From the NCBI RefSeq assembly GCF_030028105.1, contig NC_092390.1:10354001-10418000 (forward strand): a DNA stretch of 64,000 nucleotides, given 5' to 3'. The first letter of the stretch is position 1; every line of letters begins with the position of its first letter. This DNA comes from Mobula birostris. Taxonomy: Eukaryota. Position numbers and translations under genes: made by a program. Shown here piece by piece: positions 3,983-53,849 of the stretch. The notes under the pieces are model-generated. The model made no database searches. It was given only the letters and a program-made list of their open reading frames with translations, and was not told where the DNA came from.

Positions 3983-4995
3983 TGTGGTCGATCGGATCAG
4001 TGCATTTGTCGACTCGAAAACTCTCCAGTGTCGGCTCTGTGGAACTGAACACAGAAGCGTAACTAAGTACGTTGCTGTTAATTAGTGGTAATTTAATTTA
4101 ACATTATTCTATTAATTAGTTCAATTATTTGCAACCCGTTCCTCGCAGGGTCAACTAAAGCAGCAAGAGACTATTCATTAATTCAAGCCTTCAGCTAAAG
4201 CAAGAACTACCATGACACTACTCAGAGCTGTCAGCGAACGCATTAATTCATTAATGCTTTTAAGGATTGGTAAAGAGCCGGTTTCAAACAATTAGAGAGG
4301 CTTCTACGTAGAGACAATGAAATTGGATCCGATTGGAAATTGTACCGCAATAAATAAAGAGACATTGAAATGATAGGCATAAGAAGTTTAAATCATACAT
4401 CATCACAGGTAAACACTAATAATATTGTTTACTGTACTATCTGATCATTTATTCCGGTTTGAGTTTTTGGCCAAATATCTCTACTTAATTTTTAATCATT
4501 TTAATTTAAAATTTCTCCGAATTTACGGAAGCGTCGTTCATGTTTTAATCGTTTGCTTATTTCTCCGTAAGCACGTGTGATTCGCCTATAGATAGATCTG
4601 CTGAGAGCAGAAGTCACTTCAGAAGCCTGCATTATGCCAAACCGCAAACTGTGCCGATAACACGCGTAATGTAACTCCTCTCTCCTACCACCTTCATTTC
4701 TCAGAAATGGAAGCTCCAACTCAAACTTTGGATAAGCTCCCAGAGAAGCAGGCATGGACTTGTGCGGCGTTCTATTTGTATGATTTAAATATAAGAGGAC
4801 ACTTTATAACGGCGCTTACATAATGTTGCCGTGTCGGTATACCCAAGGATAGCACCACCGATGTTCGCCGACATCTGATCGTTCATCCGGATGTACGTTT
4901 TAACGCGAGGAACGTTCGCCACAGGAGAGGGCACAATGTTCTTTAAAACATACCTACGAGGCAGTACAACAGAGCAGAGGCACGGTTTGAAGTCA

Positions 4996-5114
4996 TAAAC
5001 ATTAGGAGACTGCAGATGCTGGAAATCGAGCCCTAATGCAGGTTTTCGGCTGTTTATTCATTTCCATGGACGCTCTCTGGCCTGCCGAGTTCCTCCAGCA
5101 TTTTGTGTGTGTGA
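4996..5114. mobile_element. Penelope-terminus mini-element (degenerate)
   Basis: ctgcagatgctggaaatc...gagttcctccagcattttgtgtgtg; flanked by acggtttgaagtcat / acggtttaaaatgat. Confidence 0.7.
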
Positions 5115-5302
5115 ACGGTTTAAAATGATTTATTTTTCACTTGCTCGGAAATTAAATTGTAGGAATAAACGACCATAAACCACTTTCATCCACTTGGCTC
5201 CTCGTATATTGATGAGCTACGATTTACTTTTGACTAAGTTACAAGGAAGTTGACGGATGTACAGGTCTTGTTTTATCCATTAATCCTTTCAGAACAAATT
5301 AG

Positions 5303-5580
5303 AAACATAGAAAACCTACAGCACAATATAGGCCCTTCGGCCCACAATGCTGTTCCGAACATGTCCTTACTTTAGAAATTACCTAGGGTTACCCAAAATA
5401 CTCTATTTTTCAAAGCTTCATGTACCTACCCAAGAGTCTCTTAAAAGACCCTATCGTATCCGCCTCCACCACCGTCACCGGCAGCCCATTCCACGCACTC
5501 AGCACTCTCTACGTAAAAAACTTACCCCTGACATCTCCTGTGTACCTTCTTCCAAGCACCTTAAAACTGTGCCCTCTCTA
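5303..5580 (-). mobile_element. CR1 LINE 3' end (young subfamily)
   Basis: Reverse complement closely matches 46150-46415 and 33460-33610; ctatgtttct tail. Confidence 0.9.
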
Positions 5581-5821
5581 TACATTCTATGCATACTCTT
5601 TACCTATATAATCTCCGTTTAGGTTAGCGTGTAATAAAATAATCGATGTGATAAGAACTAGTTTAACAACTGTAAAAATATATGAAAGTTGAGAGTTACT
5701 TTCGCAATTCAGTACGTCTCATTTATCGATGCCCGTGAATAACACAACTCTTCTGTACATTAGGACGTTTCTGTGCTCCGATGAAACAATTTCGTTTCAA
5801 GTTGTTTCCAACGTTTCAAAC

Positions 5822-5971
5822 AAAAAGAGATTCTGCAGATGCTGTTAGTCCACAGCAACACACATAAAATGCTGGAGGAACTCAGCAGGTCAATAGTAAG
5901 TGTCTACTGTTTATAGCGCAACATGGATGCTGCCTGACTTCTCGAGTTCCTCCAGCATTTCGCGTGTGTTA
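5822..5971. mobile_element. Fold-back Penelope-terminus mini-element
   Basis: Inverted arms aaatgctggaggaactc / gagttcctccagcattt. Confidence 0.8.
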
Positions 5972-7491: not shown

Positions 7492-10400
7492 CTTTATACA
7501 CGCAAGAATGTGACATTAAAACCTCATCGAGAAACAATCGCGACATTCAGAGCACCATCGCAAACGGCACACAGTCGCCTACGTTTACACAGTACATTTA
7601 CCATACAGTGTGTCATACCCACGCAGGCGCGCGCGCACACACGGGCACAGACGGACACGCGCGCGCGTTCACACAATCACACGCGCGCGCGCACGATAGA
7701 AACTCCATCCTTAGATTAGGACCAAACCCGCTACCAAAGTTTTAGCATGGTGCTAAGTAATTACATTAAATGTATACTGTGGTTTACAATATATTAACAT
7801 TGACAAGAGGGCGAGGTCAAACCTTAATCAGGAACAGAAGCGTTTCTTTTCTGATGTAAAATCTCTTATGTGCTAGAAGAGGAAGGTTACTTATATCAGC
7901 GCAACACTTCAAATACCAGGCATGTTAAATGGATTGCTCTGTAAGCCCGAAGGAGACTGGCAATCCTTTATCCCTTAAACTCGCCATTCCAAACAAGACG
8001 AGAAAAGATGTTTAAATTCAGGTTGTTTATTCTCCGGATACATGAGCATCCGGGGCCTTTGAAAGATTATTTCCCTCCCTTCCAACAGTATAAACAAGAA
8101 TTCACATTGCCTAGCTATGACCAGATAGCAATAAATCACAGGGTAGCTTTTTTTTGCTGGGAAAATAGCTGTTGGCGAGACTTTACGGCGATTTTATTTT
8201 TGCTGTTGTTGTTGCCTTGCGATTGGGAACTTTTCATTTTCCTCGCCTCATTATTTCCACTATTTCCAAATTCTTGAATATCGAATCAGTTACAGCTGAA
8301 GACGTTTAAGCTCGCGTTGCTCCCTGTAAAGCTTCAAATCTGTAAATATTATGCTGGTAAACGGACCTGCGACTCAAAATATACTTCCTGATCTGTGTGA
8401 AGTATTTTACTGCATGTGTACGCGTAACCATGTTGTTATCTGCATTTATAAGTGGGTTGGTAAATATATATTCCGTCTGTGTGCGTGGGCACCAGTAAGT
8501 AAATTCATATGTGTGAGTTCACAATTTTGTGCTTATGTTGATAAGTAGATCAACAAGGTAGCTGTTTGCGAGTCTCTCTTTGCAGTACGTGTACGTATGG
8601 ATATTTATCTGCATAAATGTGGGGTCGCGGGTGCAGAAAGCAAATCATGGGTGTTCGCTTCATAGTATAAACAGTAGTTAGTTGTATCGTGGATTGACTT
8701 CACGAGAAGAATCGCCACCTTCTTACAAACACTTCGGCAGAGTGGAACCTGATGGTAAAAACGCGAAATCTTTCACAAGTTTCCCTTGTAATGGTTAATT
8801 TGTAACAGGTTTATTGTTGTCATGTGCACTGAATCTTACAGTAAATTAAATAAGCAGGGATAATCTCAAAAAAATTAATTATAGTGTCAGAACTATTAAT
8901 GCACGCGTTCAATTAATCTACCTCATGGAAAATCTATAAAGTACCAAATAAATTATCAGGTTAGCAGAGATGATTTAAGATGCTTTAAACCGTTAACATC
9001 CTGTACCTCACCTTTCAAATACATTGTAAGCATTTCTCCTTTCCAGCACTTCATTCAATTTGATTAGCACACAATGTTCAGCAGCTAAGTAATAAACACA
9101 ATATCTGACCCACCTCCCCCCGCCCAAAAAAAAGCTGGATAATGCAAGTGATACCGTTAGTGGTGTTTCCGCCTGACTTCTCTTCCAACGTTGGGAGATT
9201 GTCGCAAGTCTTGTTTGAATAAAGGAGATTCCTCATATTATCGGAGATCCCTACGGCATTTGCATGTGTGCATGCTTTACCTGGCCCAGCAAGGTGAAAG
9301 AAAAAGAAGAGAGAAAAGCTACACCTGTCACACAACACGGCGCCACTGGCAAATGCTTGGGTGCTACTGAGACTCCAACAGAAGACAGCTTGATAATCCC
9401 CATCCGCTCGCCATCAACAATATCTTGTTTAGATTGAAGCCTCCACTCTCTTCACAGCGCTCCGAGCCCAGACTGTTAGTGCAGACAAACAGCTTTTGTC
9501 TTTAAATGGAGAAACGGAGACACAAGCTATTTTTTTCCATGATGTAATATCTCGCCGACAGACTACAATCCTAAACCACCCTAAACTAAACAAGTACAAG
9601 AAACAATAGGTAGAACTTCTCCCCCTCCCTCTCCCTGCACACAACCTCCCCAAAACGTTTCGCTTTGCAATGGGGTTGTGAGGAAGTGAACGGTGTACCA
9701 TTGTCACACACACGGGCAACACTCATTATTAATAAGACAATGTGAACCCACGGTAATTGCGTTATTTTTTCACCACCAATACAACGATAAGTCAAGTCAC
9801 ACCAGTAGAGTGGCAGCGATGCTGTTGATGTATATTAATGTAACAAAACAGTATTGCAAGATTTACTCTTATATTTTTTAAAATTATGAATAAGGTTTAT
9901 TTTGTTTAAAAATGTGGCGGTGAGACATTAGCGGCTACGGGCGTTTCGTGTTTTTAGTTTCTCCCTATGAATTCTGATGAGCACTGCAATTTCGAATTTG
10001 AGGGAAGAGCACGCTTTAATTTAATGCCGTCTCTTTATTTGTAAATTGTATTTTTCCTGGCGTAGAACGGGGTTATTATTCCATATTTCCCAATATGGCA
10101 TCACATACGACAAACACTGGTTTAAAATAATACACATGCAAGCAGAATTAGGACTGCAGTATACGAGACGAGATGCATAACGTTGAAGGATTTAGAAGAT
10201 TCTACGGCTTGGAAATTACAAAAATAAAAGATTGTGTTGAACTTTCATGAACGCAGTAAATCACGTGGAAAGATGCGCTATCTGTTCATGGGAAGGTTGT
10301 TATGAATAGACTTGAGCCTATTAATCTTTTCTTTTATTCGCTTTGACCAGTGTAAACTTGTGAGAGGTGAAGTTACGAGCTTTGCGTGTATCCAATTTGA

Positions 10401-10647
10401 AGGCAAGATGTGCTACTACAAGGAACATCACAGCTATTGCTGGTGCAGCAGAAATATTAAAACGAGGCGCCTGAAACATGGACAACCATCACTCTTCCAG
10501 GCAAATGAGAATTTTAACAAAGTCACTACGACTGTCCTGATATCAAATGTTAACGAATTCGCCTTCGCCACCTTCCAGACTAACTCGGGACATTAATAAT
10601 CGCCTGAGGATTGACTGTTTTCATACGACTGCACGGGTTTTGTCTCA

Positions 10648-10740
10648 AACAAGAGAAAATCTGCGGGTTCTGGAAATCCAAGCAACACACAAAATGCTGG
10701 AGGAACTCAGCAGACTAGGCAGCATCTATGGAAACGTCGA
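10648..10740. mobile_element. Penelope-terminus mini-element
   Basis: aacaagagaaaatctgc...gctggaggaactcagcag...gaaacgtcga; flanked by acgggttttgtctca / acaggtttagtctta. Confidence 0.8.
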
Positions 10741-11329
10741 CAGGTTTAGTCTTATCAGCTCAGAGCTTCAAGAGAGGCCTTTTCAAAATAAAATTCTGAT
10801 CAGAATTTTGTTCTCATTTGCGATAAAGCCCAGAATCGCCACATGTACAAACTTTTAGATCAAGCGGAACACTTATATTGTGCTCACCAACATTACCGAT
10901 TCACAGTGATATTTCTTTTAAAAATATGAACTTCCTCAGGTTTATCACGCAGCCCGGAACCAGGCCTTCGGCCCATCGTGTCAGAGGCGACCATCTACAC
11001 CAATTCTACAGCAGCATCCCGCCCAGTTGCAAAGAATGTGTTATGCTCCATGGTAAATGTTTCCAAATCTATGTGCAATCTTAGATGTGGCGATTGTGGG
11101 GATCCTGGCGAATGAAAACAAACCTCTTTTTTTTTGTTGGGCATTTGTTTTTTTTCTCTCTTCCATTTTATTCTCACCGCCTCCCCCTCGGTTAATTTAA
11201 TGCAACTTAGCGATGTGGGGGTCCAGCTCTAAGTGAATAACATGGTGTATTGTTGAGTTGTGGACAGGCTTAACTAAACATATCATATGAATGAGCAGAC
11301 TTTGATAACTGCTTATAATGCTCTCCATT

Positions 11330-12018
11330 GCACACCTGTAGAAAACTGCGAGAGGCTTGCTATGTCACCAAAGACTCTTGCAAATTTCTACAGAATTACC
11401 GAGGAGAGAATTCTATGGCAGGGCCAGCGCACAGAATCAGAAAAAGCTGCAAACTCTGCCAGCTGCGTCCACCATTAAGGACCCCCATCACCCAGGACAT
11501 GCCCTCTTCTCATTGCTGGTATCAGGGAGGAGGTACAGGAGCTTGAAGACTCATACTCAACACTTTAGTAACAATTTCTTCCCCCCCCCCACCCCCGCCA
11601 TCAGATTTTTGAATGGACAATGGATCCATGTACACTACCACGCAAAGAGGAGAAAACCTGCAGATGCTGGGAATCCGAGCAACACACACAAAATGCTGGA
11701 GGAACTCAGCAGGCCAGGCAGCATCCACGGAAAACAGTACAGTGGACGTTTCGGGCCGAGACTCTTCATCAATCCAGTACACTTCACCAGAGATGCTGCC
11801 AGGACTGCTGAGTTCCTCCAGCATTTTGTGTGTGTTGCTTACACCACTTGGCTATATTTTCTGTTCTTTTTTATACACTAATTATTTAAATCATTTTAAA
11901 CATATATTTCTTATCGTAACTGATAGTTTAAAAAATTATTACGTAGTGCAATCTACTGCTACCTCGGAACAACAAGATTCACGATATATGCCAATGATAT
12001 TAAAATTGATTCTGATCC
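11330..12018 (+). mobile_element. Rex1/Babar-like LINE 3' fragment, interrupted by a fold-back mini-element
   Basis: Peptide IKDPHHPGHALFSLLVSGRRYRSLKTHTQHFSNNFFP is typical of the Rex1 ORF C-terminus; tail ttgattctgat. Confidence 0.8.
11645..11840. mobile_element. Fold-back Penelope-terminus mini-element with a hammerhead-like core on the minus strand (11739-11772)
   Basis: ~50 bp inverted arms agcaacacacacaaaatgctggaggaactcagcag; minus strand reads tTGATGAagagtctcggcccGAAACGTCcactgt. Confidence 0.85.
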
Positions 12019-12955
12019 CAATATTTACAGTATATTGTACGCTCGAAAGCATTTGAGATACATCGAAGTGAAAATTTATGGCCGATAAAATCGCTGATCT
12101 GAAATTCACCAAGTCGGTTTAACATGGCACACCGCACTGTTTGTATTTTGAGTAATTTAAAATAATATTTTAATTTAGTCGAGCCTGTCTTTTGTTCTGT
12201 TTTTTATTTCACCCGTAGACCCAGCCTTTATTGTATACACGCGCGTCTAAATATTTGGTTGCTCACTGTTTGAAGCTAGAGAGGATGATTAGAAATACCC
12301 CGGCCACCCGTGGAAATCTGATTTCTGAGGAGACGAAACATAAACTCGAAATCTTTTTTTAAAAAAGCTGGGGTTTTAATTTATCTGTCGAATGACCGGT
12401 GACAAATACACTCGCCGTGTTCTAGCCTTGACGTTTCGCGTTTCAACCCTGGTTTCTTTTAAATCTGAGTCCTGAGCCCTGAGTCCGGAGATTCTCACAA
12501 TATCCATTTACAGTGGTCTGATTCAGACCACCAATCGGCCTCGATAAATTAGTAACATCACAGAAAAACGAGTGATTGGAATAAAGCGAGTGTTAATTCC
12601 CATATAATTGAAAAAAAGTGTCCCATGTCAAGTAAATTGCAAACTCGGGGAAAACAGAACTCCCTGAAGGACAAAGTGGCCTTCCACAGAAATTGTAAGC
12701 TACTTATGAACACTTGGAAGTTAGCAATCAGGCATTAATGTTTATATTATTGAGGCGTGTTAGATTTAAGGTTAGAAGCGAAGAAATATTGCGTGGGTGG
12801 AAAATTGACTACCAGCGGGCTTTGGACCCCATGGAAGGCAACCGACCTCTGGTTGTAACCATATCAGAGTAAAGTTTAGGTTCGTTTCAATCTTTGATTT
12901 AAGTCTATGTTCTCCCTAGTAGTAAGAAGTAGTTAGTAAAATTAAGCACGCGTGT

Positions 12956-12964
12956 ATACACACC

Positions 12965-13010
<46 letters not shown>
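12956..13010. repeat. (CA)n microsatellite
   Basis: Directly visible. Confidence 0.95.
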
Positions 13011-13015
<5 letters not shown>

Positions 13016-14184
13016 CCTCTTACAAAGATACAAAGATTTGATCGCCATTACGGGCCATTTTAACTTCCATTTACTGATGTACATGGAAACAAAATACCGT
13101 TTTAACAAAATAAAGGATGTTGTGGTTAATAATGCGATCGAACATCTAGTCTGTTTAAAATGGAGCAGATTACTTGGAAACATGTGACTCAACCTAAAGA
13201 GACCAGCGACTAGAAGAAGTCTCAGTATTACCGTCCCAGTCACGGCTATGGATAGACAGTAGTTGCAACCTTAAATCAACGTATCAAACACCACAAAGTT
13301 CCACAGTTCGCAGAGAATTCAGAATCACTAAAATTCTACCCTTAACTTAGAAGGAAAATATATCCTTGCCACTTGCAAAAACCAGTTCTCCATTATCTGC
13401 TCACGCAGTCCCTCTCTGAGAAGGGTATGTGTACAGTCGTATAATGCGGGCTCTCTGTACAAATAAAAAACTTTTGTTTACTACTTCTAACGAAATCTTC
13501 GAAGATCTCCAGGCAAACAAATACAAATTCGAAACAGACTAATAAGTAACATACAAATTTACAACAAATAATTAGAATACCCAGGTACTTAGCTTTTACG
13601 TACTTGCACGGGTGATGTGTTTAGACTTTACTGTAACCTCGGGTAGGCTAGAGGCACATCACCTCACAGACTAGCTATCCGGTTTCCCTCAGTATCCTCA
13701 TGTCCCATCTCGCGTCTACGGCGACAACAATTTCAACTACCTTTAATGTTCATAACACGCGGACTCCGACTCCACGACCCCGCGTATCCGTGCATGAAAG
13801 GTGAAACAACTCGCCAGGATTTCTAACTCTTCGATTTTTAACAGTTGTTTACACGAACAAAAGAATGCTCCGCTCAGCGAGCTCACCGGATATAACCCTA
13901 CCATGCCCGTGTAATCTTTCCATTCAAACGGAAAGGTAAAGCTCGAAGTCCCCGACCGAAATATATATGATGGTTATTTCGAAATTATTAATTATCTATA
14001 GTTTTTTGAAGCTTAGCAGTTATCCACTGAGTGTAGAGTTCTCGGGGCTTTAGCTGGATAAATCGTTTTATAAATGCTTTCAGCTAGATTATTTTACGCA
14101 AGTAACCGGTTGTAATTTTGAGACAGTGCAGCAAAGCAACGTGAGACATAAATACGCCTGGTCCTGAAAACTAGAAATCGATAA

Positions 14185-14493
14185 AGATTTGAATTAAATT
14201 ATTATCACTAATGTAACGTGATTTATTTTGGGCAGCACTACAGTGCAAAGACATAAAATTACTATTGATTACAAAATAAATAAATAGTGCGTAAAAAGGT
14301 TTATTTTCTCGGCCCGAAACGTCGACTGTTTGTTGCTTTCCATTGAAACTGCCTGATCTGCTGAGATCCTCCAGCATTTTGTGTGTGTTACCAAATGTTT
14401 GCAGACCGTCCAGACATTTTTTTTTAAACAGGGGAAGGAGCTGTTTCTGAATTGTTGAATGTGTCTCTTCAGGCTCCTGTACCTCTTCCTCAC
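14185..14493 (-). mobile_element. Rex-like LINE 3' remnant containing a Penelope-terminus fragment (14308-14390)
   Basis: RKRYRSLKRHIQQFRNSSFP; internal ctcggcccgaaacgtcgactgt...ccagcattttgtgtgtg. Confidence 0.7.
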
Positions 14494-14929
14494 TGGAAGA
14501 GGCTCCCTTTTATAACCTTTAAAGCACCGTAACCGCTCAGACCATCACAGTCTGAGCTAACATCTTTTGCCGAGAAGAGCGCAGATTACACGAAGCCAAC
14601 AACCACGGTTTGGAACAATTTTAGGCAATGAGAATGGAAAATGCTGGAAACACTCAGCGGGCCAGGCAGCATCTGTGCAGAGAGAAACAAAACTGTTAAC
14701 CTTACGTCGGAAATTAAGGGTTTGTGGGGTTAATGGCACGCTGTGTACTTCTGCTGAATCTTAAATTTCCTCCTCATGCTTGAGTTGGCGCTGCTCCGAT
14801 AATGTTGAGAGGGCTGTCGGGAAAAAGAAAAGGAGCAAGAGAAACATTAACATAACTAAAGACTGGAAATAGGTAAGTTAAGAGTGCACTAAATTAAACT
14901 TGACGGGAGACTTGTATGTGTTCAGGGCA

Positions 14930-16215: not shown

Positions 16216-16239
16216 AGGTGGAGAAGAGAGTTGATCCTT

Positions 16240-16410
16240 GAAGAGACTGCAAATGCTGAAAATGGAGCAACAAGCAATGTGCTGGACAAACTCAGTAGGT
16301 CAGGCAGCATCTGTGGAGGGAAAGGGACAGTTGGCTGTTTCCTAACTGACTGAGGTCCTCCAGTGTTTTGTGTGTGCAATGCTTCGGACTTCCAGCATCT
16401 TCAGAATTGC
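16240..16410. mobile_element. Older fold-back Penelope-terminus mini-element
   Basis: gactgcaaatgctg...ctcagtaggtcaggcagcatc...gaggtcctccagtgttttgtgtgtg. Confidence 0.65.
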
Positions 16411-16469
16411 TTGTGCTCATGTTCACTTTTCTTTGGAAATGAAATTATGACATTGACCAGAGCTCAATT

Positions 16470-16643
16470 NNNNNNNNNNNNNNNNNNNNNNNNNNNNNNN
16501 NNNNNNNNNNNNNNNNNNNNNNNNNNNNNNNNNNNNNNNNNNNNNNNNNNNNNNNNNNNNNNNNNNNNNNNNNNNNNNNNNNNNNNNNNNNNNNNNNNNN
16601 NNNNNNNNNNNNNNNNNNNNNNNNNNNNNNNNNNNNNNNNNNN
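16470..16643. other. Assembly gap
   Basis: Run of N. Confidence 1.
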
Positions 16644-16889
16644 ATAGAGTATTTGTCCTATATAGCCAAGAGCCAGAATTTGGGATTTTTTTTTCAAATG
16701 TGTGAAGATCAGATGAGATTCCATTGCCTGAGAGTTCGAAGTAAAATGTTAAGAAGCACATGGCATGTTGTAGACAGCCCTGTGATGAGACTGAAAGAGC
16801 TCAGTTAAATCCCCAGACATACATCAAAGGGGCAGCATTCTCACTAAAATACTCAATAGACATTGGAAGATCAGATGCATGGTTTAAAT

Positions 16890-18999: not shown

Positions 19000-20480
19000 T
19001 AACACAGAAGATCCTGAGATGCTGGAAACCCAGAGCAACGCACACAAAATGCAGGAGTAACTTAGCAGATCAGGCAGCTTCTGAAGTGAACAAGCAGTCG
19101 ACGTTTCGCACCAGAACTGGAAAGGAAGGGGGAAGATGCAGAATAAAAAGTGGGGGAAGGGGAAGAGGACAGGAGGGTGGGAAAGATAGAGGGCTGGAGA
19201 GGAGAGTGGACCATAAGAGAAAGGGAAGTAGAAGATGTATCCAGGGGGAGGTAACAGGCAGGTGAGAAGAGGTAAGAGGCCAGAGTGGGTAATAGAAGAA
19301 GAGGGGAGGAGGAGGAATAGTGCTTTCACAGGAGGGAGAAATCGAGTTCACGCCATCAGGTTGGAGGCTACCCAGATGGAATATGAGGTGTTGCTCCTCC
19401 ACCATTGTGCCAAGAGGAGGCCATCGCCCAACATGTCAGAAGGGGAATAGGAATGGGAATTGGAATCAAAATGTTTGGCCACCGGTAAGTTCTGCCTTTG
19501 ACGAATTGACGAAGCGATCTCTCATGGGTCTCACCAATGCTCCAGTGCTGAGGAGGCTGCATTGGGTGCACCAGACACAACAGGCAACCTCAGCGGATTT
19601 ACGGGTGAAGTGCTGGAAGGACTGTTCGGGGCATGAATGGAGATGACGGAGAAGGTGAATGGGCAGATGTAGCACTTTGGCCACTTTCAGGGATAAGTGC
19701 CGGGAGGGAGATTAGTGGAGAGAGACGAATAGACAAGGGAATCACGGAGGAAGCAATCCCTGCGCACAGTAAAGAGAGGGGGTGATCCCTGCGAGATAAA
19801 GATGTGTTTGGTGGTAGGATACACTTGCAGATGGCAGAAGTTGCAGAGGATGATGTGTTGGATGAGGTGACTGATGGGGTGGCAGCTAAGGACAAGAAGA
19901 ACTCCAGCACTGTTAAAGTGTCGGGAAGATGGGGTGAGCACAGATGTTCAGAAGATGGAGGAGATATGGGTGAGGGCAGTACCTATGGCGGAGGATGGGA
20001 AACTGTGTTCTTTGAAGAAGGAGGACATCTCTAATGTCTTGGAAAGGAAAGCTGCCTCATGGGAACAGATATGGCGGCGACGAAGAAACTGAGAGACGGG
20101 AATAGCCTTTTCACAGGAGACAGGTTAGGAAGAGGTATAGTCAATGTAACTGTGGGAACTGGTAGGTTTATAAAAGATGTCGGTTGACAGTTTGTCTCCA
20201 GAGATGGAGACAGTGAGATTGAGAAAGGGGAGGGAGCTGTCAGAAATGGACCAAGTGAATATAAGCAACACACACAAAATGCTGGAGGAACTCAGCAGGC
20301 CAGGCAGCATCTATGGAGAAGAGTAAACAGTTGACATTTTGGCCTGAGACTCTTTATCAGGACTGTGTTGCTTTGATTTCCAGCATCAGTGGATTTTCTG
20401 TTTCAAGTGAATTTAAGGGCAGGGTGAAGTTAGAGGCAAAGTTGATTAAATTGATGAGTTCAGCATGGGTACATGAAGCA
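19000..20480 (-). mobile_element. Penelope-like retroelement, degraded 3' half (RT C-terminus, GIY-YIG, terminus)
   Basis: SLPFLNLTVSISGDKLSTDIFYKPTSSHSYIDYTSS (PLE RT thumb); VEEQHLIFHLGSLQPDGVN (GIY-YIG end); pyrimidine-rich 3' UTR. Confidence 0.88.
20266..20403. mobile_element. Mini-element inserted into the Penelope copy, with target-site-like duplication
   Basis: caagtgaatataag (20252-20265) / caagtgaatttaag (20404-20417); degenerate hammerhead core on the minus strand (gtcCTGATAAagagtctcaggccaaaatgtc). Confidence 0.8.
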
Positions 20481-20917
20481 GAGTTATCTTGAATTTTGTA
20501 CGTTCCGCCATTGATTGGACAAACTGGAAGTCACCACTTACCTCACGGTCCCTGGGATGTGGATACATTAGGACTTGTTCACTGGTCTCAGCTTCTGATG
20601 GCCACTGAACAAGGCAGCATGAAATTCACTGTGCAAGGAAATAGAGTCGGGGAGAAAAATCTTTCCAATTCATTAATAGCACATCCAGTCATTTACCCCC
20701 CAGGTTAAGTAGCAAAGGATGGTGAGGAGAAAGGCCAGCAATATCATGAAGGGTTCCACCCACCCAGCTCATGGACTGTTTGTCCCACTCTCATCAGAGA
20801 AGAGGCTATGTAGCATCCACATCAGGACCAGACTCAAAATCAGTTATGCCCCCCAAGCCATTAGGCTAATCAACAACTCCACACATTAACCCACCTCACC
20901 AGCACTGTATACACATC

Positions 20918-20983
20918 CAGAAGTTCCCAACCTGGTGTCCATGGACCCCTCAGTTAATGGTAGGGGTCCATGGCATAAAAAGC
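20918..20983. mobile_element. hAT (Charlie-like) MITE remnant
   Basis: cagaagttcccaacctg TIR-like start; internal inverted repeat ccatggacccct...aggggtccatgg. Confidence 0.55.
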
Positions 20984-21025
20984 TCCTGAGTAAAGAAGTC
21001 ACTTTGTCAACACACAATCAATCTA

Positions 21026-21648: not shown

Positions 21649-21754
21649 TATGTATATAACAGTTACTTGTACATTGTGTTTTATGGGATTGCTTATATAT
21701 ATAGATTGTACATACATACACACATTGTGCATATTGTGTGAGCACAGGTTGGCA

Positions 21755-28073: not shown

Positions 28074-28712
28074 TGCCGAGCACCTGCACTCTGTAAGCCA
28101 GAAGAAGCAGGATCTCTCAGTGGCCACCCATTTTAATTCCACTTCCCATTCCCATTCCGATATGTCAATCCATGGCCTCATCTACTCTCGCGATGAGGCC
28201 ACGGTCAAGTTGGAGGAACAACACCTTGTACTCCGTCTGGGTAGCCAACCTGATGGCATGAACGTCGATTTCTTGAGCTTCCAGTAATATTCCCCCAACC
28301 CACCCCACTTCACCATTCCCCATTCCCTTTTCCCTCTCTCACCTTATCTCCTTTCCCACCCATTGCCTCCATTCGGTGCTCCTCCCCCTCCTTTTCTTTC
28401 TTCCATGGCCTTCTGTCCTCTCCTATCGGACTCCCCCTTCTCCAGCCCTGAATCTCTTCCACCAATCAACGTCCCAGCTCTTTACTTCACCCCTCCCCTC
28501 CTGGCTTCACCTATCACCTTGTTTTTCTCCCTCCCCCCCCCACCTTTTAAATCTACCCCTCATCTTTTTTTCTCCAGTCCTGCTGAAGGGGCTCAGCCCA
28601 AAAACATCAACTGTACTCTTTTCCATAGATGCTGCCTGGCCTGCTGAGTCCCTCCAGCATTTTGTATGTGCTGCTTGGATTGCTAGTATCTGCAGATTTT
28701 CTCTTGTTTGTG
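28074..28712 (+). mobile_element. Penelope-like element 3' end (GIY-YIG C-terminus, UTR, degenerate hammerhead, terminus)
   Basis: AEHLHSV..DLSVATHFNSTSHSHSDMSIHGL..KLEEQHLVLRLGS; cagtcCTGCTGAaggggctcagcccaaaaacatc at about 28575-28608. Confidence 0.88.
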
Positions 28713-28826
28713 GTCCCACTCACACAGTTTGGAATGATGAAGGATACTGGAGTATCCATGGCCCCACTGCTGCCCATAAGGAGTTTGCAAGTCCTCAGCA
28801 TGACAGAGTGGGTTTTCTCTGGGTGC

Positions 28827-28960
28827 AAACAACAGGAATTCTGCAGATGCTGGAAATTCAAGCAACACACATCAAAGCTGCTGGTGAACGCAGTAGGCCA
28901 GGCAGCATCTCTAGGAAGAGGTGCAGTCGATGTTTCAGGCTGAGACCCTTTGTCAGGACA
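28827..28960 (-). mobile_element. Penelope-terminus mini-element inserted into a V-SINE (about 28770-29060)
   Basis: Perfect 8 bp direct repeat ctgggtgc at 28819-28826 and 28961-28968; minus strand gtcCTGACAAagggtctcagcctGAAACATCgac. Confidence 0.85.
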
Positions 28961-30272
28961 CTGGGTGCTCCAGTTTCCCACAGTCCAAAGATATATCAGT
29001 TGGTAGATGAATTGGTCATTGTAAATTGTCCCGTGATTAGCCTAGGATTAGATCAGTGGTTGCTGGGCTGCACAGCTCGAAGCAGTATGTATCTCAGGAA
29101 TACGGAAGAGTACTTGGACCACACAGTCAGTAGTGGAGGTCGGATAGTTAAAGTGCCACTGCTACTTTCTCACCCCTACCTCTAAAGAAATTCCTTCTCA
29201 TTCTACAGACAAACTTGTTTAAAGACAGACGGGAACTTCTGCATTAGGTCTCTCTCCAAAGAACACCATCCTTGACCACACATCACTTGTTGCCTGTGTT
29301 CAGGAGAATGAACTTTGTTAAAGTGTGTGAGATCTCCAGTGGGACTTGGACCCACCCTCAATCTGTACAGAGACTCTGAAGGAATGACCTTCCCTGCTGT
29401 AGTTTATAATACTTGTCTCCTCAATGGCTTATATACGCTGATGTCGGTATAGGCACAGTTTTGCTTCTGTATGCAATACCTCCCAGTGTCCAACCACCCA
29501 GGGAAACAAAGACTGATCACTGTTGTTTAGAGGTACTATAAAAATATTTTTCCATGATCGGAGTTTGTTTGACAGGACCCTTAAACTATGTTTTATTCCT
29601 CCTTCCACTAGTTGTACAGATACAGTAAATATTGATATATGTTTTATTTGGAAGCTTATACGATAGTGTACTACAATAAAAGCTCGGGATAAAGCACCAG
29701 GAGTATTTGACATCCAATAACCGTCTGCAGTTGATTGGGGAAAAATACTTGGACAGCATCTGTGGACAGAAACAGCTAGGGCTTCAAGTTGCTGACATTT
29801 CATCAGTTCTGGTGGCTTTGGATATGTTTAATTTTGGGTTTCCTGCTGTGAATGTATAATTCCAGTTGTCTCTTCAGAATCTGAATAAGGTTTATTATCA
29901 ATTGGCATATGTTGTGCGGCAGCAGTACGGTGCAATAAATTACAATGAGAATTATAATACATATATTTTTTAAAAATAAATAAATAAGTTGTTTAAAAAG
30001 TGAGCAAAAATAGTGAGGCAGTATTCATGGGCTCATTTTCTGTTCAGAAATCTGACGACGAAGTGGAAGAAACTGTCTTTAAATCAGTGAGTGTGGATCT
30101 CCAGTCTCCTGTATCTGCTCCCTGATGGCAGCAATGAGAAGAGGGCATGTCCTAGATAGGGAGAGTCAGTAATGATTATGCTGCCTTTTTGAGGTATCGC
30201 CTTTGTAAGATGTCCTTGATGCCCATCTAAATTAGCTCCACTTGTCTGTGTTTGGCACATAGCTCTCTAAAC

Positions 30273-35639: not shown

Positions 35640-35745
35640 TACAGGTCCTGATTAAGGGTCTCAGCCCACAATGTTGACTGCTTATTCCCCTCTGTAGATA
35701 CTGCCTAACCTGCTGAGTTCATCCGGCGTTTTGTGTGTGCTGCTG
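35640..35745 (+). mobile_element. Penelope terminus with degenerate hammerhead core
   Basis: gtcCTGATTAagggtctcagcccacaatgttgac...ctgctgagttcatccggcgttttgtgtgtg. Confidence 0.7.
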
Positions 35746-37562: not shown

Positions 37563-37877
37563 TTAAGATCTGTCATAAATATGTATTGGGATGAGCTAAT
37601 CTTTGACTGAAAAATATGCACATATTTGAAGGAAAAAAAATTAATGATTCTGTTTTGATGCAAGGTGTAAATAAAGGATCGAATTGCTTTTATATGTTTA
37701 AAGTTCGAGATTCATGATTGTGTAATGTAATTTCTGTGCACAAGTGTAAGGACAGTGAAATTATTGTAGCTCTGGATCCAATACAGCACAAAAAAGAACT
37801 CCACAAAAGATAAAGGACACAATAATAATACTAAATAAAACACACAATAAATATAAATACATAAGATAGCTTATATA

Positions 37878-38165
37878 AAGCAACACACACAAAATGCCGG
37901 AGGAACGGGTCAGACAGCATCTACGGAAATGAAAAAACAGTCGACATTTTGGGCTGAGTCTCTCATTCAGGACTGGAAAGGAAGTGGGGAAGATGCCAGA
38001 ATAAAAAGGTGGGGGGGGGGAGGTGAAGAATGATAGCTAGAAGATGATAGGTGAAGTCAGATGGGTGGGAAAGGTAAAGGACTGGAGATGAAGGAATCTG
38101 ATAGGAGAGGAGAGTGGACCATAGGAGAAAGGGAAGGAGGAGGGACACCAGGGGGAGGTGATATA
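37878..38165 (-). mobile_element. Penelope 3' UTR/terminus fragment
   Basis: Homologous to 19020-19260 and 53850-54230. Confidence 0.8.
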
Positions 38166-40345: not shown

Positions 40346-40359
40346 GTGCCGGAGCAGAT

Positions 40360-41301
40360 CATAAACACAGGAAATTCTGCAGTTGCTGGAAATGTAAAGC
40401 AGGGGATGGAGGGAGGGAGGGGAGGGAACGTCGACTCAGACCATGAGAGGCCTGCATCGGGCATTTTCATGCCTTACAAGGCACAGAATGTAAAGCAACA
40501 CACACAAAATAGTGGAGGATCTCAACAGTTCAGGCAGCATCTATATAAATGAATAAACAGTCAACGTTTCAGGCCAAGACCCTTCTTCAGGACTTCAGGA
40601 AGATGCTAGATTAAAAAGGTGGGGGGGGGGAGGGGAAGGAGCACTAGGCAGAGGGTGATGGGTGAAGCCAGGTTGGTAGGAAATGTTGGAGAGGAAGGAA
40701 TCTGATGGGAGAAGAGAGTGAACCGAAGGAGAAAGGGAATGAGGAGGGGACTAGGGGGTGGTGATAGGTAGGTAAGAAGAGTTAACAGGCTAGAGTGGGG
40801 AATAGAAGAAAAAGGAAGGGAGAAGGATGATTCTTTTACCGGAAGAAAAATCAATATTCATGCCATCAGGTTGGAGGTTACCCATACAGAATATAAGGTG
40901 TTTGCTCCTCCACCCCGAGGGTGGCCTCATTTTGGCACAAGACATGTTGGAGCAGGAATGGGAATGGAGATTAAAATGGGCCACCGGGAAGCCCTGCTTT
41001 TGGTTGATGGAGCAGAGGTTTTTGATGAAGCCGTCCCCCAATTTGCGCATAGTCTCACCATGAGGAGGCCCCATCGGGAGCACCGGATACAATAGACAAT
41101 CCCAGCAGATTCGGAGGTGATGTGTTGCCTCACCTGGAAGGACTATTTGGCCCCTGAATGCAGGTGAATAGTCGGGTCTAGCACTTAGGCCCACTTGCAA
41201 GGATAAATGCTGGGAGGGAGGTTAGTGGGGATGGACGAAAGGGACGAGTGCTACACCTACCCATTCACCTCCTCTCTCACTTCCATTCATGGCCCCAAAC
41301 A
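40360..41301 (-). mobile_element. Penelope-like element 3' part with a short inverted segment at its 5' side
   Basis: RQHITSESAGIVYCIRCSR, KHLIFCMGNLQPDGMNIDF; 41247-41301 is the same region in plus orientation. Confidence 0.82.
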
Positions 41302-41309
41302 TGCCAGCA

Positions 41310-42190: not shown

Positions 42191-42225
42191 AATAATTAAG
42201 TAAAAATACTAATAACTTGACTAAA

Positions 42226-42990
42226 TACTGTAAGCGCAAGTGCTACACCTGTCCCTACACCTCCTCTCTTGCCACCATTCAGGGCCCCAAACAGTACTTC
42301 CAAGTGAGGCAACACTTCACTTGTAAGTCTGTTGGGGTCATCTATTGCATCTGGTGCTCCCAGTGCGGCATCCTCTACATCGGTGAAACCCGACGCAGAT
42401 TAGGGGACTGCTTCGTCGAGCACCTCCACTCTGTCCAACACTACAGACTGGATCTCCCGGTAGCCACCCACTTCAACTCTGCTTCCCACTCCCATTCAGG
42501 TATGGCCATACATGGCTTCCTCTACTGCCATGATGAGGCTAAACTCAGGTTGGAAGAGCAACACCTCATATACCGTCTAGGTAGTCTCTACCCTTGGTAT
42601 GAACATTGAATTCTCCAACTTCTGGTAATTCCCTCCCCCTCCCTTCCCCTATCCCTATGTCACTCTGCCCCCTCCCCCAGCTGCCTATCACCTCCCTCTT
42701 GGTTCCGCCTCCTTCTACTACCCATTGTGTTTTCCTCTATTCTTTTTTCACCAGTCCTGCCTATCCCCTCCCTGCCTCCCCTCCCCCACCCCTTTATCTT
42801 TCCCCTTACTGATTTTTCTCCTGGAACCTACCAGCCTTCTCCTTGCCACCCTCCCCCCACCTTCTTCATAGGGCCTCTGCCCCTTCCCCCTACAGTCCTG
42901 ACGAAGGGTTCCAGCCCGAAACGTCGACCGATCTTTTCCACGGATGCTGCCCGACCTGCTGAGCTCCTCCAGCGTGTTGTGGGTGTTGCT
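42226..42990 (+). mobile_element. Penelope-like element 3' end with a recognisable GIY-YIG endonuclease region
   Basis: CKRKCYTCPY..HFTCKSVGVIYCIWCSQCGILYIGETRRRL..EH..PVATHFN..LEEQHLIYRLGSL. Confidence 0.93.
42893..42930 (+). ncRNA. Minimal type I hammerhead ribozyme (Penelope-associated)
   Basis: cagtc-CUGACGA-a-ggg-uuccag-ccc-GAAA-CGUC/gaccg: helix I cagtc:gaccg (4/5), helix II ggg:ccc, helix III reduced to the palindrome ACGU; predicted cut after 42925. Confidence 0.8.
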
Positions 42991-42999
42991 GATAACTTG

Positions 43000-44275
43000 A
43001 GTTGTAGAATCCTTGAAAGTGAGCTTGTAGGTTGTTGGAATATGTTCATTATTGAGGAGAGTGAAGTTAACAATACTGCTTCAGGAGCCTGATGGTTGAA
43101 AGGTAGTTACTGTTCCTGAACCTGATGGTGTGGGACCTAAGGTTCCTGTACGTCCATCCCAATGGTAGCAGTGAGAAGAGAGCACATCCTGGACAGTGGG
43201 TTCTTGAAGAATGATGCTGCTTTCTTGTGGCAGCGCTCTTTGTAGATGTGGTGGGGAGGACTTCGCATGTGATGAACTGGGTTGTATCCATCACTTTTTT
43301 TAGGCTTTTCTGCTCTTGGGCATTGGTGTTTCCATACCAGGCCATGATGCAACCAGTTAGGATATCCTCAAAATTCAAACTACATTTAATATTGAGGTAT
43401 CTATAATTTATAGAGATTAGTCTGCTTACAGGCAGCCACAGAACAAATAACCCCCCAAAAAAATTTAACCAATACCAACAAAAACCCAGTGTGCAGAGAG
43501 AGAGAAAAAAAAAACACTGTGCAAACAATAAAAGCAAGGAACACATTTGGAAGGAAAGTGAGTCCATAGAGAGGAAGCCTGGAGCAGCTGGAGCAGGCCC
43601 TCAGCCTCAGCGCTACAGAGAGTGGAGCAGACGTCACAGAATAGTGAGCAGAACTGATTCAACCCTCCCCTCCGGTCCTGACACCCTGCCTTTTCAGTCC
43701 ATTTTGCCCAACGTTTAACTTGTCCAAACACTGTCACTCCCTTCACTAGGACCCGGTCCCTGGCACTTCAATATGTTTTGGGCCTGAACCCTCCACTACG
43801 TTTCAGTCCATACCCCACCTTTCCAAACCGGCCTGACACTTGGGTCGATCAGACCTCGCTCTCGGTTTAAGTGGATGGGCTCCAGAACTCCTTTGCTTCG
43901 AACTTTCTCCACTTTGCATGTCCCAATTCCGTCTCATCCAGGTCCCGACCTCACTCCGAAAACTTCTCCTTGAACATGCCTGGACCCTGCTCCGACTTCG
44001 AATCCATCTCACACCCACACACCTTGGCTGTCGGGTCAGCCTTGCCTTCGCTCACCTCTTCATTGTTGACGATGACTGTTTACCACAATTTTCCATAGAA
44101 AACATGCTATCAATAAAGTATTTAGTTGTATTTCTTGCTTTATGAACCACCAGTAGGCTGTCGCCCATCTTCAAAGTGCCATCTTAAACCGTAAGATGTG
44201 CATCTACAGAAGTTTGTCAAAATTTTAGACCACATTCTGAATCTATGCAGACTTCTAAGAAAGTAGAGGCATTAC
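43000..44275 (-). mobile_element. Rex-like LINE remnant interrupted by an apparently internally deleted element (about 43368-44195)
   Basis: ILTGCIMAWYGN..HCPGCALFSLLPLG peptide; RT remnant resumes near 44195; the insert has a (tttgaa) tail and an aagatggc start on the minus strand. Confidence 0.55.
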
Positions 44276-44754: not shown

Positions 44755-45585
44755 ATAACCATATAACCATATAGCCATTACAGCACGGAAACAGTCCATC
44801 TCGGCCCTTCTAGTCCGTGCCGAACTCTTACTCTCACCTAATCCCGCTGACCTGCACTCAGCCCATAACCCTCCATTCCCTTCCTGTCTATATGTCTATA
44901 CAATTTAATTTTAAACGACAACATTGAACCTGCCTCAACCACTTCTGCTGGAAGCTCGTTCCACACAACTACCACTCTCTGAGTAAAGAAGTTCCCCCTC
45001 ATGTTACCCCTAAACTTTTGCCCTTTAACTCTCAACTCATGTCCTCTTGTTTGAATCTCCCCCATTCTCAATGGAAAAAGCCTATCCACGTCAACTCTAT
45101 CAATCCCCCTCATAATTTTAAACACCTCTATCAAGTTCCCCCTCAACCTTCTACGCTCCAAAGAATAAAAGACCCAACTTGTTCAACCTTTCTCTGCAAC
45201 TTAGGAGATGAAACCCAGGCAACATTTTAGTAAATCTCCTCTGTACTCTCTCAATTTTATTGACATCTTTCCTAAAATTCGGTGACCAGAACTGTACACA
45301 ATACTCCAAATTTGGCCTTACCAATGCCTTATACAATTTCAACATTACATCCCAACTCCTATACTCAATGCTCTGATTAATAAAGGCCAGCATACCAAAA
45401 GCTTTCTTCACCACCCTATCCACATGAGATTCCACCTTCAGGGAACTATGCACCATTATTCCTAGATCCCTCTGTTCTACTGCATTCTTCAATGCCCTAC
45501 CATTTACCATGTATGTCCTATTTTGATTAGGCCTCCCAAAATGTAGCACCTCACATTTTTCGGCATTAAACTCCATCTGCCACAG
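44755..45585 (-). mobile_element. CR1 LINE 3' fragment (young)
   Basis: MEFNAEKCEVLHFG..RPNLEYCVQFWSP..NFFTQRVVVVWNELP; (tatatggt)n tail. Confidence 0.95.
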
Positions 45586-45680
45586 ATGCCTCCTGACTTG
45601 CTGAGTTCCTCCAGCATTTTGCAGAGATCAGGATTAAACCTGGGCAGCTAAGAGGCAGCAGTTCTACAAGCTGGCCGTAT

Positions 45681-52500: not shown

Positions 52501-52804
52501 ATGGAAGGTGCCCTGCCCTATTTTTTGCTTAGTTTCAAAGATCATTAATAACCTTTCTGCCGCACCCAAGTCCTGGCAGCACTTCCAGGAGAGGAAGGCA
52601 GTGAGAAATTTTATTTTATTCTCATACAAAGGTTGGATACTAAGCCTAGTTATGCCACCACTAGATACCAGGGTGCTGGGTATACACAGTGAGCTCATCT
52701 TCATGCATTTATAAACTTTAGCAGGGTCTGTTATTATTTGCTTGGAAAAATATAAATACTCCACCTTAAATATTTTGATATCGAGCATGTTATCTATGTG
52801 GATA

Positions 52805-53332
52805 TACATTCAGTGGCCACTTTATTTGGTTCATCTAAAGAACCCGGTGTGGTCTTCTACTGCTGTAGCCCATCCACTTCAAGGTTCGATGTGTTGTACG
52901 TTCAGAAATGCACTCCTGCGCACCATGGCTGTAACTCGTGTTTATCTGAGTAACTGTCGCCTTCCTGTTAGCTTGAACCTGTCTGGCCATTCTCTTCTGA
53001 CCTCGTTCATTAACAATGTGTTTCCACTCCCAGAACTGCTGCTCACTGGATCTTTTTTGTTTCATGCTCCATCCTCTGTAAACTCTAGGGACTGTTGTGC
53101 ACGAAAATCTCAGGGGATCAGCAGTTTCTGAGATACTCAAACCACTTCATCTGGCACCAACAATCATCCCACAGTCAAAGTCACTTAGATCACATTTCTT
53201 CTCCATTCTGATGTCTGAATAACTTCAACATGTCTATCTGTTTTTATGCATTGAGTTGTTGTCAAATGATTGACTGACTAGATATTGCATTAACAGGTAG
53301 GTGTACCGAATAAAGTGGTCAATAAGTTTGTA
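52805..53332 (-). mobile_element. Internally deleted Tc1-like transposon
   Basis: TIRs TAcattcagtggccactttatt / aataaagtggtcaataagtttgTA; peptide SISETAD..SRVYR-like..QANRKATVTQI..ISERTTHRTLKWMGYSSRRPHRV. Confidence 0.85.
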
Positions 53333-53546
53333 TCAGAAGGAACCACAAAGGCAGTACCTGGTGAAGCCTTTCAACCTGAAACACCGATTGTCCTTTTCAC
53401 TCCACAGATGCTGCCTGTTGGATTAGGATGTAGAATTGTTGATTTTCTTGTCATTTAGTTCTCCTGTGCTTGCTTGTATTTTTACATGGTTATCTATATG
53501 CATCTGTCGTTCAGTGCATTTCCCAGCCATTGTGGTACACTTACTC

Positions 53547-53779
53547 ACACAAAATGCTGTAGGAACTCAGCAGGCCAGGCAGCATCAATGGAAAGAGTAA
53601 ATGGTCAACATTTCACGCCAAGACCCTTCATCAGGAAGGGTCTGATGGAGGAGCTCGGCCCAAATTGTCAACTGTTTACTCTTTTCAAAAGATGCTGCCT
53701 GGCCTGCTGTGTTCCTCCAACATTTTGTGTGTGTGTTGCTTTGGATTTCCAGCATCTGCAGATTTTCTCTTGTTTGTGA
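53547..53779. mobile_element. Fold-back Penelope-terminus mini-element with two back-to-back hammerhead-like cores
   Basis: ~90 bp inverted arms meeting at ttcatcaggaagggtctgatgg; flanks tggtacacttactc (53533-53546) / tggtacagtcactc (53780-53793). Confidence 0.85.
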
Positions 53780-53849
53780 TGGTACAGTCACTCCTGTACT
53801 TTCCTAAAGGCTTCTTAGTTTCAGTAGCAGTGTCATACTACTTGAACCT

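What the first reader, a model, noticed from the sequence alone, without database searches (positions are those of the whole stretch)
4982..53793. Candidate family of tiny, independently mobile, hammerhead-bearing fold-back elements derived from Penelope termini
Seen: at least 8 elements of 100-240 bp (about 4996, 5822, 10648, 11645, 16240, 20266, 28827, 53547) consist only of the Penelope terminal sequence, often as two inverted arms, with no coding sequence. Five are flanked by direct repeats: 4982-4996/5115-5129 (12/15), 10633-10647/10740-10754 (12/15), 20252-20265/20404-20417 (13/14), 28819-28826/28961-28968 (8/8), 53533-53546/53780-53793 (12/14). Three interrupt other repeats (a Rex LINE, a Penelope copy, a V-SINE). 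Several arms end at the CUGAYGA of the hammerhead. Established: Penelope-like elements carry minimal hammerheads in their pseudo-LTRs and often form inverted 5' structures. Inference: these are either a non-autonomous ribozyme-delimited retro-MITE mobilised by the GIY-YIG/RT machinery, or a stereotyped abortive Penelope insertion product whose boundary is set by the ribozyme.
Basis: partly seen in the sequence, partly recalled or inferred. Interest (0 to 1): 0.75.

Follow-up and report, generated by a model that had tools for sequence, protein, structure and literature searches.

The report
Stub insertions of a Penelope retrotransposon
These short repeats are real, old, stub-sized insertions of the end of a Penelope-type jumping gene in a ray-like fish, likely each made separately rather than copied as their own family, and the one extra is that many stop at one spot that may mark where the element's RNA begins.

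Summary
All eight elements (92-233 bp) exist and are pure Penelope terminus. The five duplications are real (p 0.000-0.017 each) and three interrupt other repeats. They do not behave as a family: the six two-arm junctions all differ, minis are about as far from each other (0.24) as from long copies (0.25), none has an intact hammerhead, and three tested sit at the same place in relatives 1-5% diverged. Outer ends fall at two fixed sites ~33 nt apart (25 of 29 arms), with the extra tail on one arm only in 5 of 6 two-arm elements. This is the published Penelope-like insertion pattern, and fits an enzyme that primes both DNA strands from two internal RNA start sites. One extra: 7 of 14 arms that reach the hammerhead's front edge stop there and none in the next 105 nt. 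That edge is 30 nt from the cut site and coincides with a predicted intron acceptor and an initiator-like motif, so a template boundary is likelier than ribozyme cutting. No genome was held. The scan reported the same pattern on other pieces of this genome and in other genomes.

The parts
4982..4996 (.). left target-site duplication of element 4996
   Evidence: 12/15 match to 5115-5129, p 0.017
4998..5027 (-). 4996 left arm: almost only the tail (model 271-301)
5046..5112 (+). 4996 right arm (model 198-264, no tail, no hammerhead core)
5115..5129 (.). right target-site duplication of element 4996
5819..5892 (-). 5822 left arm (model 230-301, with tail)
5902..5970 (+). 5822 right arm (model 197-265, no tail); no significant duplication
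10633..10754 (-). single-arm element 10648-10734 (model 213-301, with tail) between 12/15 duplications 10633-10647 and 10740-10754
11645..11771 (-). 11645 left arm (model 173-301, tail, hammerhead with first core C changed)
11778..11841 (+). 11645 right arm (model ~207-270, no tail); element interrupts a dispersed repeat, candidate 7/8 duplication 11631-11638/11840-11847
16241..16341 (-). 16240 left arm (model 192-298), diverged
16346..16411 (+). 16240 right arm (model 234-295); the one element with a tail on both arms; no significant duplication
20252..20417 (.). element 20266: left arm 20266-20365 (-, model 167 to ~270), right arm 20364-20402 (+, model 260-298), 13/14 duplications; interrupts the RT frame of a long Penelope copy
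28819..28968 (-). single-arm element 28828-28959 (model 169-301) between perfect 8-bp duplications, inside a SINE-like repeat
53533..53793 (.). element 53547: left arm 53543-53636 (-, model 170-264), right arm 53642-53774 (+, model 172-301), 12/14 duplications
19003..20485 (-). long 5'-truncated Penelope copy (RT and GIY-YIG remains, pyrimidine tract, terminus with tail)
28075..28709 (+). long Penelope copy with tail
37877..38163 (-). Penelope copy with pyrimidine tract, no tail
40491..41250 (-). long Penelope copy, no tail, complete hammerhead core
42220..42992 (+). long Penelope copy: Cys linker and GIY-YIG remains, pyrimidine tract, terminus without tail
42625..42895 (+). predicted intron: donor-like GTAA at the ORF end, pyrimidine tract, acceptor-like CAG at hammerhead stem I (predicted, splicing not shown)
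   Evidence: same acceptor position reported for D. virilis Penelope in PMC4209133
42893..42930 (+). minimal type I hammerhead with complete core; predicted cut after 42925
53841..54230 (-). Penelope copy with pyrimidine tract, no tail
60783..61143 (+). Penelope copy with pyrimidine tract and tail
14307..14392 (+). unlisted short copy (model 183-268)
35645..35744 (+). unlisted short copy (model 169-268), candidate 13/17 duplication (p 0.03)
53352..53417 (+). unlisted diverged short copy (model 167-231)

Best explanation
Each mini-element is a severely 5'-truncated insertion of the terminus of an abundant Penelope-like retrotransposon, likely made independently by the element's own RT/GIY-YIG protein, which would nick both target strands, prime copying from two fixed internal RNA sites ~33 nt apart, stop within ~130 nt, and leave one arm or two head-to-head arms between target duplications. 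Shown: terminus-only content, duplications, two fixed outer ends, one-sided tail, variable junctions, dead or missing ribozyme, old age of three copies. Inferred by analogy with the Anolis enzyme: two-strand priming and internal starts. Inferred with lower odds (about 0.45): the pile-up of inner ends at model 167-173 is run-off from an RNA whose 5' end lies at the front edge of the hammerhead, i.e. the protein started at the 5'-proximal copy of its initiation site. The copies are dead on arrival; the hairpin is a by-product of insertion.
For: Outer ends: 12 of 29 arms at model 262-273 and 13 of 29 at 294-301, in minis and long copies alike. Tail on exactly one arm in 5 of 6 two-arm elements; in 4996 and 20266 the tailed arm is little more than the tail. 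The short outer end recurs genome-wide: in all 4 relatives' contigs the top loose ends include 11677-11681, several with AT-rich low-agreement flanks, and 42981/42990. All 6 junctions are unique in the window. Mean p-distance mini-mini 0.237 (53 pairs), mini-long 0.249 (75), long-long 0.266 (21); arms within an element differ at 7/36, 12/66, 21/59, 22/94 sites. 0 of 8 minis have a complete core, 2 of 7 long copies do. 5822 and 10648 are joined to their flanks in 4 of 4 relatives' runs, 4996 in 3 of 4, at 1-5% divergence (table 8). On the 42541-43020 subfamily, 29 joints were found in four runs and each of the 15 shown rests on one contig. Published: 5' truncation, inverted 5'-truncated copy and one-sided 30-40 bp tail (PMC8557442), with 8-10 bp TSD and solo pLTRs (PMC3846280); both strands nicked and extended, two internal RT starts that bound the tail, product length set by the template 5' end, ribozyme cleavage not needed (PMC11167929). 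Inner-end pile-up: 7 observed against 1.04 expected in 165-175, 0 against 6.3 in 60-164.
Against: No genome was held, so the family question rests on 22 short arms in 64 kb plus truncated contig tables; a family with few copies per 64 kb could be missed. The tree of 17 of 27 arms had 0 of 14 supported branches, so it neither shows nor rejects interleaving. 16240 has a tail on both arms; 5 of 6 is not significant against a coin toss (p about 0.11, my arithmetic). The enzyme studied in vitro is a Poseidon element; these carry a Neptune-type Cys linker. The pile-up is weaker under other nulls: scan p 0.011 with constant hazard, and p 0.16 if ends are taken as uniform within 165-271. No empty orthologous site appeared in the rows shown. 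The depth step at the hammerhead edge is confounded by other subfamilies mapping there.
Confidence: 0.8

Rival explanations
1. A non-autonomous family (retro-MITE or monomeric retrozyme) is transcribed from mini copies and re-mobilised in trans by the Penelope protein.
For: The minis keep the region that holds the RT start sites, and pLTR sequence alone sufficed for mobilisation in trans in a rotifer (PMC3846280). Non-autonomous PLE derivatives exist (MRC1; retrozymes). 7 of 22 short arms share a 5' end within 7 nt.
Against: No shared junction among 6; no distance cohesion; the shared 5' end occurs in different sequence variants (alignment); no tandem hammerhead units in the window; no multi-contig joint.
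Confidence: 0.08
2. For the inner boundary only: RT stalls where the unspliced template enters the intron's 3' splice site and pyrimidine tract (bound splicing factors or hard-to-copy sequence), not at an RNA end.
For: The boundary is exactly a Y-rich tract + CAG motif in the long copies, with a donor-like GTAA at the ORF end in 3 of the 4 copies that reach it; the D. virilis Penelope intron ends at the 5' end of Helix I.
Against: None of 7 copies that pass the edge stops in the next 105 nt, which a difficult tract would not predict. Splicing itself was not seen: no matching joint among the rows shown for the RNA-like run.
Confidence: 0.3
3. For the inner boundary only: hammerhead self-cleavage makes the template 5' end.
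For: 6 ends against 2.4 expected in 196-209 (p 0.034, uncorrected); three single-contig joints link 42924-42928 (around the cut) to 42894-42895 in one relative, kind not shown (table 5c).
Against: Only 2 of 22 ends lie within 3 nt of the cut (197, 198); 10 of 22 arms run through it, and the main cluster is 30 nt upstream. In Anolis no RNA-seq reads began or ended at the cut and cleavage was not needed.
Confidence: 0.12
4. Single-arm copies are solo pLTRs left by recombination between direct pLTRs of once longer insertions.
For: 28827 is one pLTR-sized unit between perfect duplications; solo pLTRs were attributed partly to recombination in PMC3846280.
Against: Cannot make head-to-head arms (6 of 8); no copy with two direct pLTRs is in the window.
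Confidence: 0.1

Closest known systems
Insertion units of endonuclease-positive Penelope-like elements (PMC8557442 Fig. 2 legend and text; PMC3846280; passages read)
   Same: 5' truncation, inverted 5'-truncated copy head to head, 30-40 bp tail at one end, short TSD, solo pLTRs.
   Different: Here both pieces are cut so short that no coding sequence remains; TSDs reach 14-15 bp against 8-10 bp in the rotifer; a pile-up of 5' ends at the hammerhead edge is not described in the passages I read.
Poseidon element PAc of Anolis, in vitro mechanism (PMC11167929, parts 1-2 of 4 read)
   Same: Two internal RT starts bounding the tail; hammerhead in the pLTR; an ATG inside CUGAUGA lies 25 nt before the cut here, 26 nt for the PAc start codon.
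   Different: The ray element has a CX3-4CXXC linker (Neptune/Nematis type); the frame from that ATG is closed in my window profile, so it is not shown to be the start codon.
Minimal hammerheads of metazoan PLEs (PMC4209133; passages and Discussion read)
   Same: Type I core with no stem III loop (palindromic ACGU), an extra base before stem II, mostly dispersed single motifs tied to truncated PLEs, and pairs 100-700 bp apart on opposite strands already noted in Schistosoma.
   Different: None is complete in these minis.
Non-LTR retrozymes (bioRxiv 10.64898/2026.07.22.740005, parts 1-3 of 5 read)
   Same: Non-coding, pLTR-derived, type I hammerhead.
   Different: Retrozymes are head-to-tail tandem units each with a complete ribozyme; these are single or head-to-head, with none.
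L1 twin-priming inversions (recalled, not read)
   Same: Two primers from the two target strands give an inverted piece joined to a direct piece, inside one TSD.
   Different: In PLEs both start sites are fixed and internal; in 3 of 5 one-tailed elements the tailed arm runs past the second start site, which needs strand displacement or two RNAs.

Membership tests
EN+ Penelope-like element (source of the minis) | RT followed by C-terminal GIY-YIG endonuclease upstream of the terminus | tested here: met
   tblastn of ray proteins maps RT-to-GIY-YIG remains directly upstream of the terminus in 4 long copies; Pfam GIY-YIG only weak, E 0.083
EN+ Penelope-like element (source of the minis) | minimal hammerhead in the pLTR | tested here: met
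   complete core in 2 of 7 long copies; Rfam found none
EN+ Penelope-like element (source of the minis) | optional 30-40 bp tail, often at one end only | tested here: met
   25 of 29 outer ends at two sites ~33 nt apart; one-sided in 5 of 6
EN+ Penelope-like element (source of the minis) | inverted 5'-truncated copy and TSD | tested here: met
Neptune/Nematis clade | CX2-5CXXC linker between RT and EN | tested here: met
   CKRKCYTC in the window ORF 42196-42609 and in P0001, CKRNKCYTC in P0003
Neptune/Nematis clade | RT phylogeny | not tested
Independent non-autonomous family (retro-MITE) | copies share one structure and junction | tested here: not met
   6 of 6 junctions differ
Independent non-autonomous family (retro-MITE) | copies closer to each other than to the autonomous element | tested here: inconclusive
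   distances 0.237 vs 0.249; tree has no supported branch
Independent non-autonomous family (retro-MITE) | genome-wide amplification of one junction | tested here: inconclusive
   none in one subfamily; tables cut short; no genome
Non-LTR retrozyme | head-to-tail tandem units | tested here: not met
   no such array among 9 TRF rows
Non-LTR retrozyme | complete hammerhead in each unit | tested here: not met
   0 of 8
Non-LTR retrozyme | circular RNA | not testable with these tools
   only contigs of runs guessed to be RNA were offered

The most novel reading that the evidence does not exclude
The stubs are 'strong-stop' integration products: the Penelope protein initiates at the copy of its internal start site near the 5' end of its own RNA and runs off at a fixed RNA end (an initiator or intron acceptor at hammerhead stem I), on both target strands. 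The many thousands of such fossils in ray genomes would then map the transcript 5' end, both RT starts and rare ribozyme cuts in vivo, and explain how pLTRs and inverted pLTRs form.
Probability: 0.35. Interest if true: 0.5.

Novelty: new member of a known kind. Interest (0 to 1): 0.24.

Why it matters
As a new mobile family it fails, so the headline claim is ordinary. The residual value is mechanistic: steps after priming in Penelope transposition are unvalidated (PMC11167929), the role of the hammerhead is open (PMC8557442), and these stubs record start sites, strand use and a preferred stop in vivo. The coincidence of that stop with a predicted splice acceptor gives a cheap test. It also warns that such hairpins can be mis-annotated as MITEs or microRNA precursors.

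Tried and rejected
Whole-genome survey: no genome held. Exact 24-nt motif in viral and metagenome contigs: 0 hits each. Rfam: no hammerhead; 4 weak hits below gathering score, including a miRNA model on the inverted pair 53697-53892, taken as chance on a hairpin. Tree of the 17 longest of 27 arms: unresolved; 10 shorter arms were left out, and the two tail-only arms (4996 left, 20266 right) were not in the alignment. Empty orthologous sites: none among the rows shown for four relatives; the tables were cut. RNA: no holder on record as RNA; the run guessed to be RNA is about 5-fold richer, relative to DNA, from the hammerhead edge onward than in the tract (0.052-0.085, one bin 0.034, vs about 0.01), but contig depth is not an expression measure and subfamilies cross-map, so I do not count it. 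Spliced retrocopies: no exon-1-like sequence upstream of the 7 edge-ending arms (by eye), rejected. One contig skips 42618 to 42894, near the predicted intron but not at its exact borders: inconclusive. Consensus fold of the downstream terminus: an 8-bp stem closed by the tail, with 0 of 14 pairs showing two-sided change, so structure is not supported by covariation. Selected fold-back function: rejected, arms are 64-86% complementary and as diverged as unrelated copies. Virtual empty sites for 4996, 5822, 10648, 16240, 53547 had no spanning copy in the window.
Full report
Setting. The window is repeat-rich, 42% G+C. Its GIY-YIG fragment at 42220-42606 is 79-81% identical to predicted proteins of Hypanus sabinus and Mobula hypostoma, so the host is likely a ray or close relative. 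No genome was held, so counts come from the window and from contigs of coded public runs.

Anatomy of the terminus. I aligned 13 window copies, built a 301-nt profile and found 28 hits; one further tail-only arm at 4998-5027 came from local alignment. In profile coordinates the stem I 5' arm is 167-171, CUGAUGA 172-178, GAAAC 192-196 and the predicted cut 199/200. Stem III has no loop (palindromic ACGU), as in the minimal dimer-type hammerheads of PMC4209133. Seven hits are long copies with a pyrimidine tract upstream (0.73-0.90 pyrimidine in the last 30 nt), four with RT or GIY-YIG remains. The Cys linker CKRKCYTC is the Neptune/Nematis feature named in PMC8557442; an earlier scan note prompted this check.

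Observation check. All 8 elements exist. The five duplications match as stated and exceed swapped-flank and random nulls (p 0.000-0.017); jointly p 8e-8. Two of the 8 unlisted copies also reach p 0.03. Three interruptions hold: 28827 and 11645 by virtual empty sites, 20266 by protein collinearity. The title overstates two things: none of the 8 has a complete hammerhead core and 4 lack the CUGANGA part; only 4 have extended complementary arms.

Outer ends. 12 of 29 arms end at 262-273 and 13 at 294-301; the other four end at 231, 256, 257, 279. Long copies use the same two ends. In 5 of 6 two-arm elements one arm has the tail and the other has not. This is the published pattern: an inverted 5'-truncated copy and a 30-40 bp tail at one end (PMC8557442), with a TSD (PMC3846280). 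For the Anolis Poseidon protein, both strands are cleaved and extended, RT starts at two internal sites that bound the tail, and 5' truncation of the template shortens the product (PMC11167929). Loose ends in four relatives' contigs pile up at the short end (11677-11681), so it is a genome-wide feature.

Family test. The six junctions differ and none recurs in the window. Mean p-distances are 0.237 mini-mini, 0.249 mini-long and 0.266 long-long; the two arms of one element differ by 18-36%. The tree of 17 arms had no supported branch, so it is inconclusive. Elements 5822 and 10648 are joined to their flanks in 4 of 4 relatives' runs and 4996 in 3 of 4; these runs differ from the window by about 1-5% (table 8), so the insertions are old. 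11645 was resolved in one run only. On a single-orientation copy (42541-43020), 10,000-29,000 contigs per DNA run gave 29 joints in all; the 15 shown rest on one contig each. That speaks against an amplified junction in that one subfamily, with limited sensitivity. No tandem hammerhead array exists in the window.

Inner ends. They lie at 167, 167, 169, 169, 170, 172, 173, 178, 183, 192, 197, 198, 203, 204, 207, 208, 213, 226, 230, 234, 260, 271 (alignment error of a few bases is likely). Seven fall in 165-175 against 1.04 expected at constant hazard, none in 60-164 against 6.3, six in 196-209 against 2.4. A scan statistic gives p 0.011; treating ends as uniform within 165-271 gives p 0.16. The window was chosen after seeing the data, so these are generous. 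The arms do not continue as pyrimidine tract (0.33-0.60 in the 30 nt upstream). So the boundary is probably real, and it is not the cut site.

What the boundary is. In the long copies the tract ends in a Y-rich stretch plus CAG, then TCCTGA, and starts with a donor-like GTAA at the ORF end in 3 of the 4 copies that reach it. PMC4209133 reports that the D. virilis Penelope intron ends at the 5' end of Helix I, and PMC2377424 places that intron 46 bp after the start site within an internal promoter. The same bases fit an initiator consensus (recalled). No exon-1-like sequence precedes the edge-ending arms, so they are not spliced retrocopies. A sharp stop with no stops beyond it fits run-off from an RNA 5' end best (about 0.45), then stalling at the splice site (0.3), then cleavage or other causes. 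Three single-contig joints between the cut and the front edge in one relative (table 5c) may record cleaved templates, but their kind was not shown.

Model. Shown: terminus-only inserts, TSDs, two outer ends, one-sided tail, private junctions, dead ribozymes, age. Inferred: a dimeric protein nicks both strands about 8-15 nt apart; each 3' end primes at one of two internal RNA sites; synthesis ends early or at the template end; the two cDNAs are joined, in some cases through 2-7 nt overlaps or short fillers visible at the junctions. In 4996 and 20266 the tailed arm stops near the second start site, as twin priming on one RNA would give (L1 analogy, recalled).

Literature coverage. Seven searches. 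Read: PMC11167929 parts 1-2 of 4; bioRxiv 10.64898/2026.07.22.740005 parts 1-3 of 5; passages of PMC8557442, PMC3846280, PMC2377424, PMC8969392; passages and Discussion of PMC4209133. I found no description of a 5'-end pile-up at the hammerhead edge in these, but subscription papers, Repbase and supplements were not seen and may hold it. Earlier notes of this scan reach the same verdict on other DNA; none combined it with the intron acceptor under my word search. They are not independent evidence.

Verdict. Real and well observed, but a known kind of Penelope insertion product, not a new mobile family. Interest 0.24; the template-boundary reading (probability 0.35) would deserve about 0.5.

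Noticed in passing
window 42625-42895 (+), also 28284-28578 and 40595-40839: The pyrimidine-rich 3' tract of long copies is bounded by a donor-like GTAA at the ORF end and an acceptor-like CAG at hammerhead stem I: a predicted ~270-nt retained intron.
   Followed up: partly
window 42894-42928 (table 5c): Three single-contig joints in run X5 link the region of the predicted cut (42924, 42925, 42928) to the hammerhead front edge (42894, 42895) with 1-2 extra letters; two share one depth and may be one contig; kind not shown.
   Followed up: no
window 5300 and 11677 (table 5): An opposite-strand joint between the start of the high-copy repeat at 5300-5576 and the Penelope short end recurs in 5-14 contigs in each of four relatives; possibly a preferred target or a composite repeat.
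   Followed up: no
window 53697-53892: The right arm of 53547 and the next long copy form a tail-to-tail inverted pair 70 bp apart that scores weakly against a microRNA model (E 0.039, far below gathering).
   Followed up: partly
proteins P0001, P0002, P0008: Ray gene models named mucin-2, divergent protein kinase domain 1C and ABHD14A contain Penelope coding sequence, suggesting mis-annotation or exonisation.
   Followed up: no
window 35622-35759 and 45560-45639: Two unlisted short copies have candidate duplications (13/17 and 10/12, p about 0.03).
   Followed up: partly
window 17262-17867, 55533-56171, 31552-33351: LINE RT remains (Pfam RVT_1); the first also matches ALKBH8_N. Ordinary.
   Followed up: partly
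window 16470-16643 and 27871-28073: Assembly gaps; the second cuts the 5' side of the long Penelope copy at 28075.
   Followed up: no
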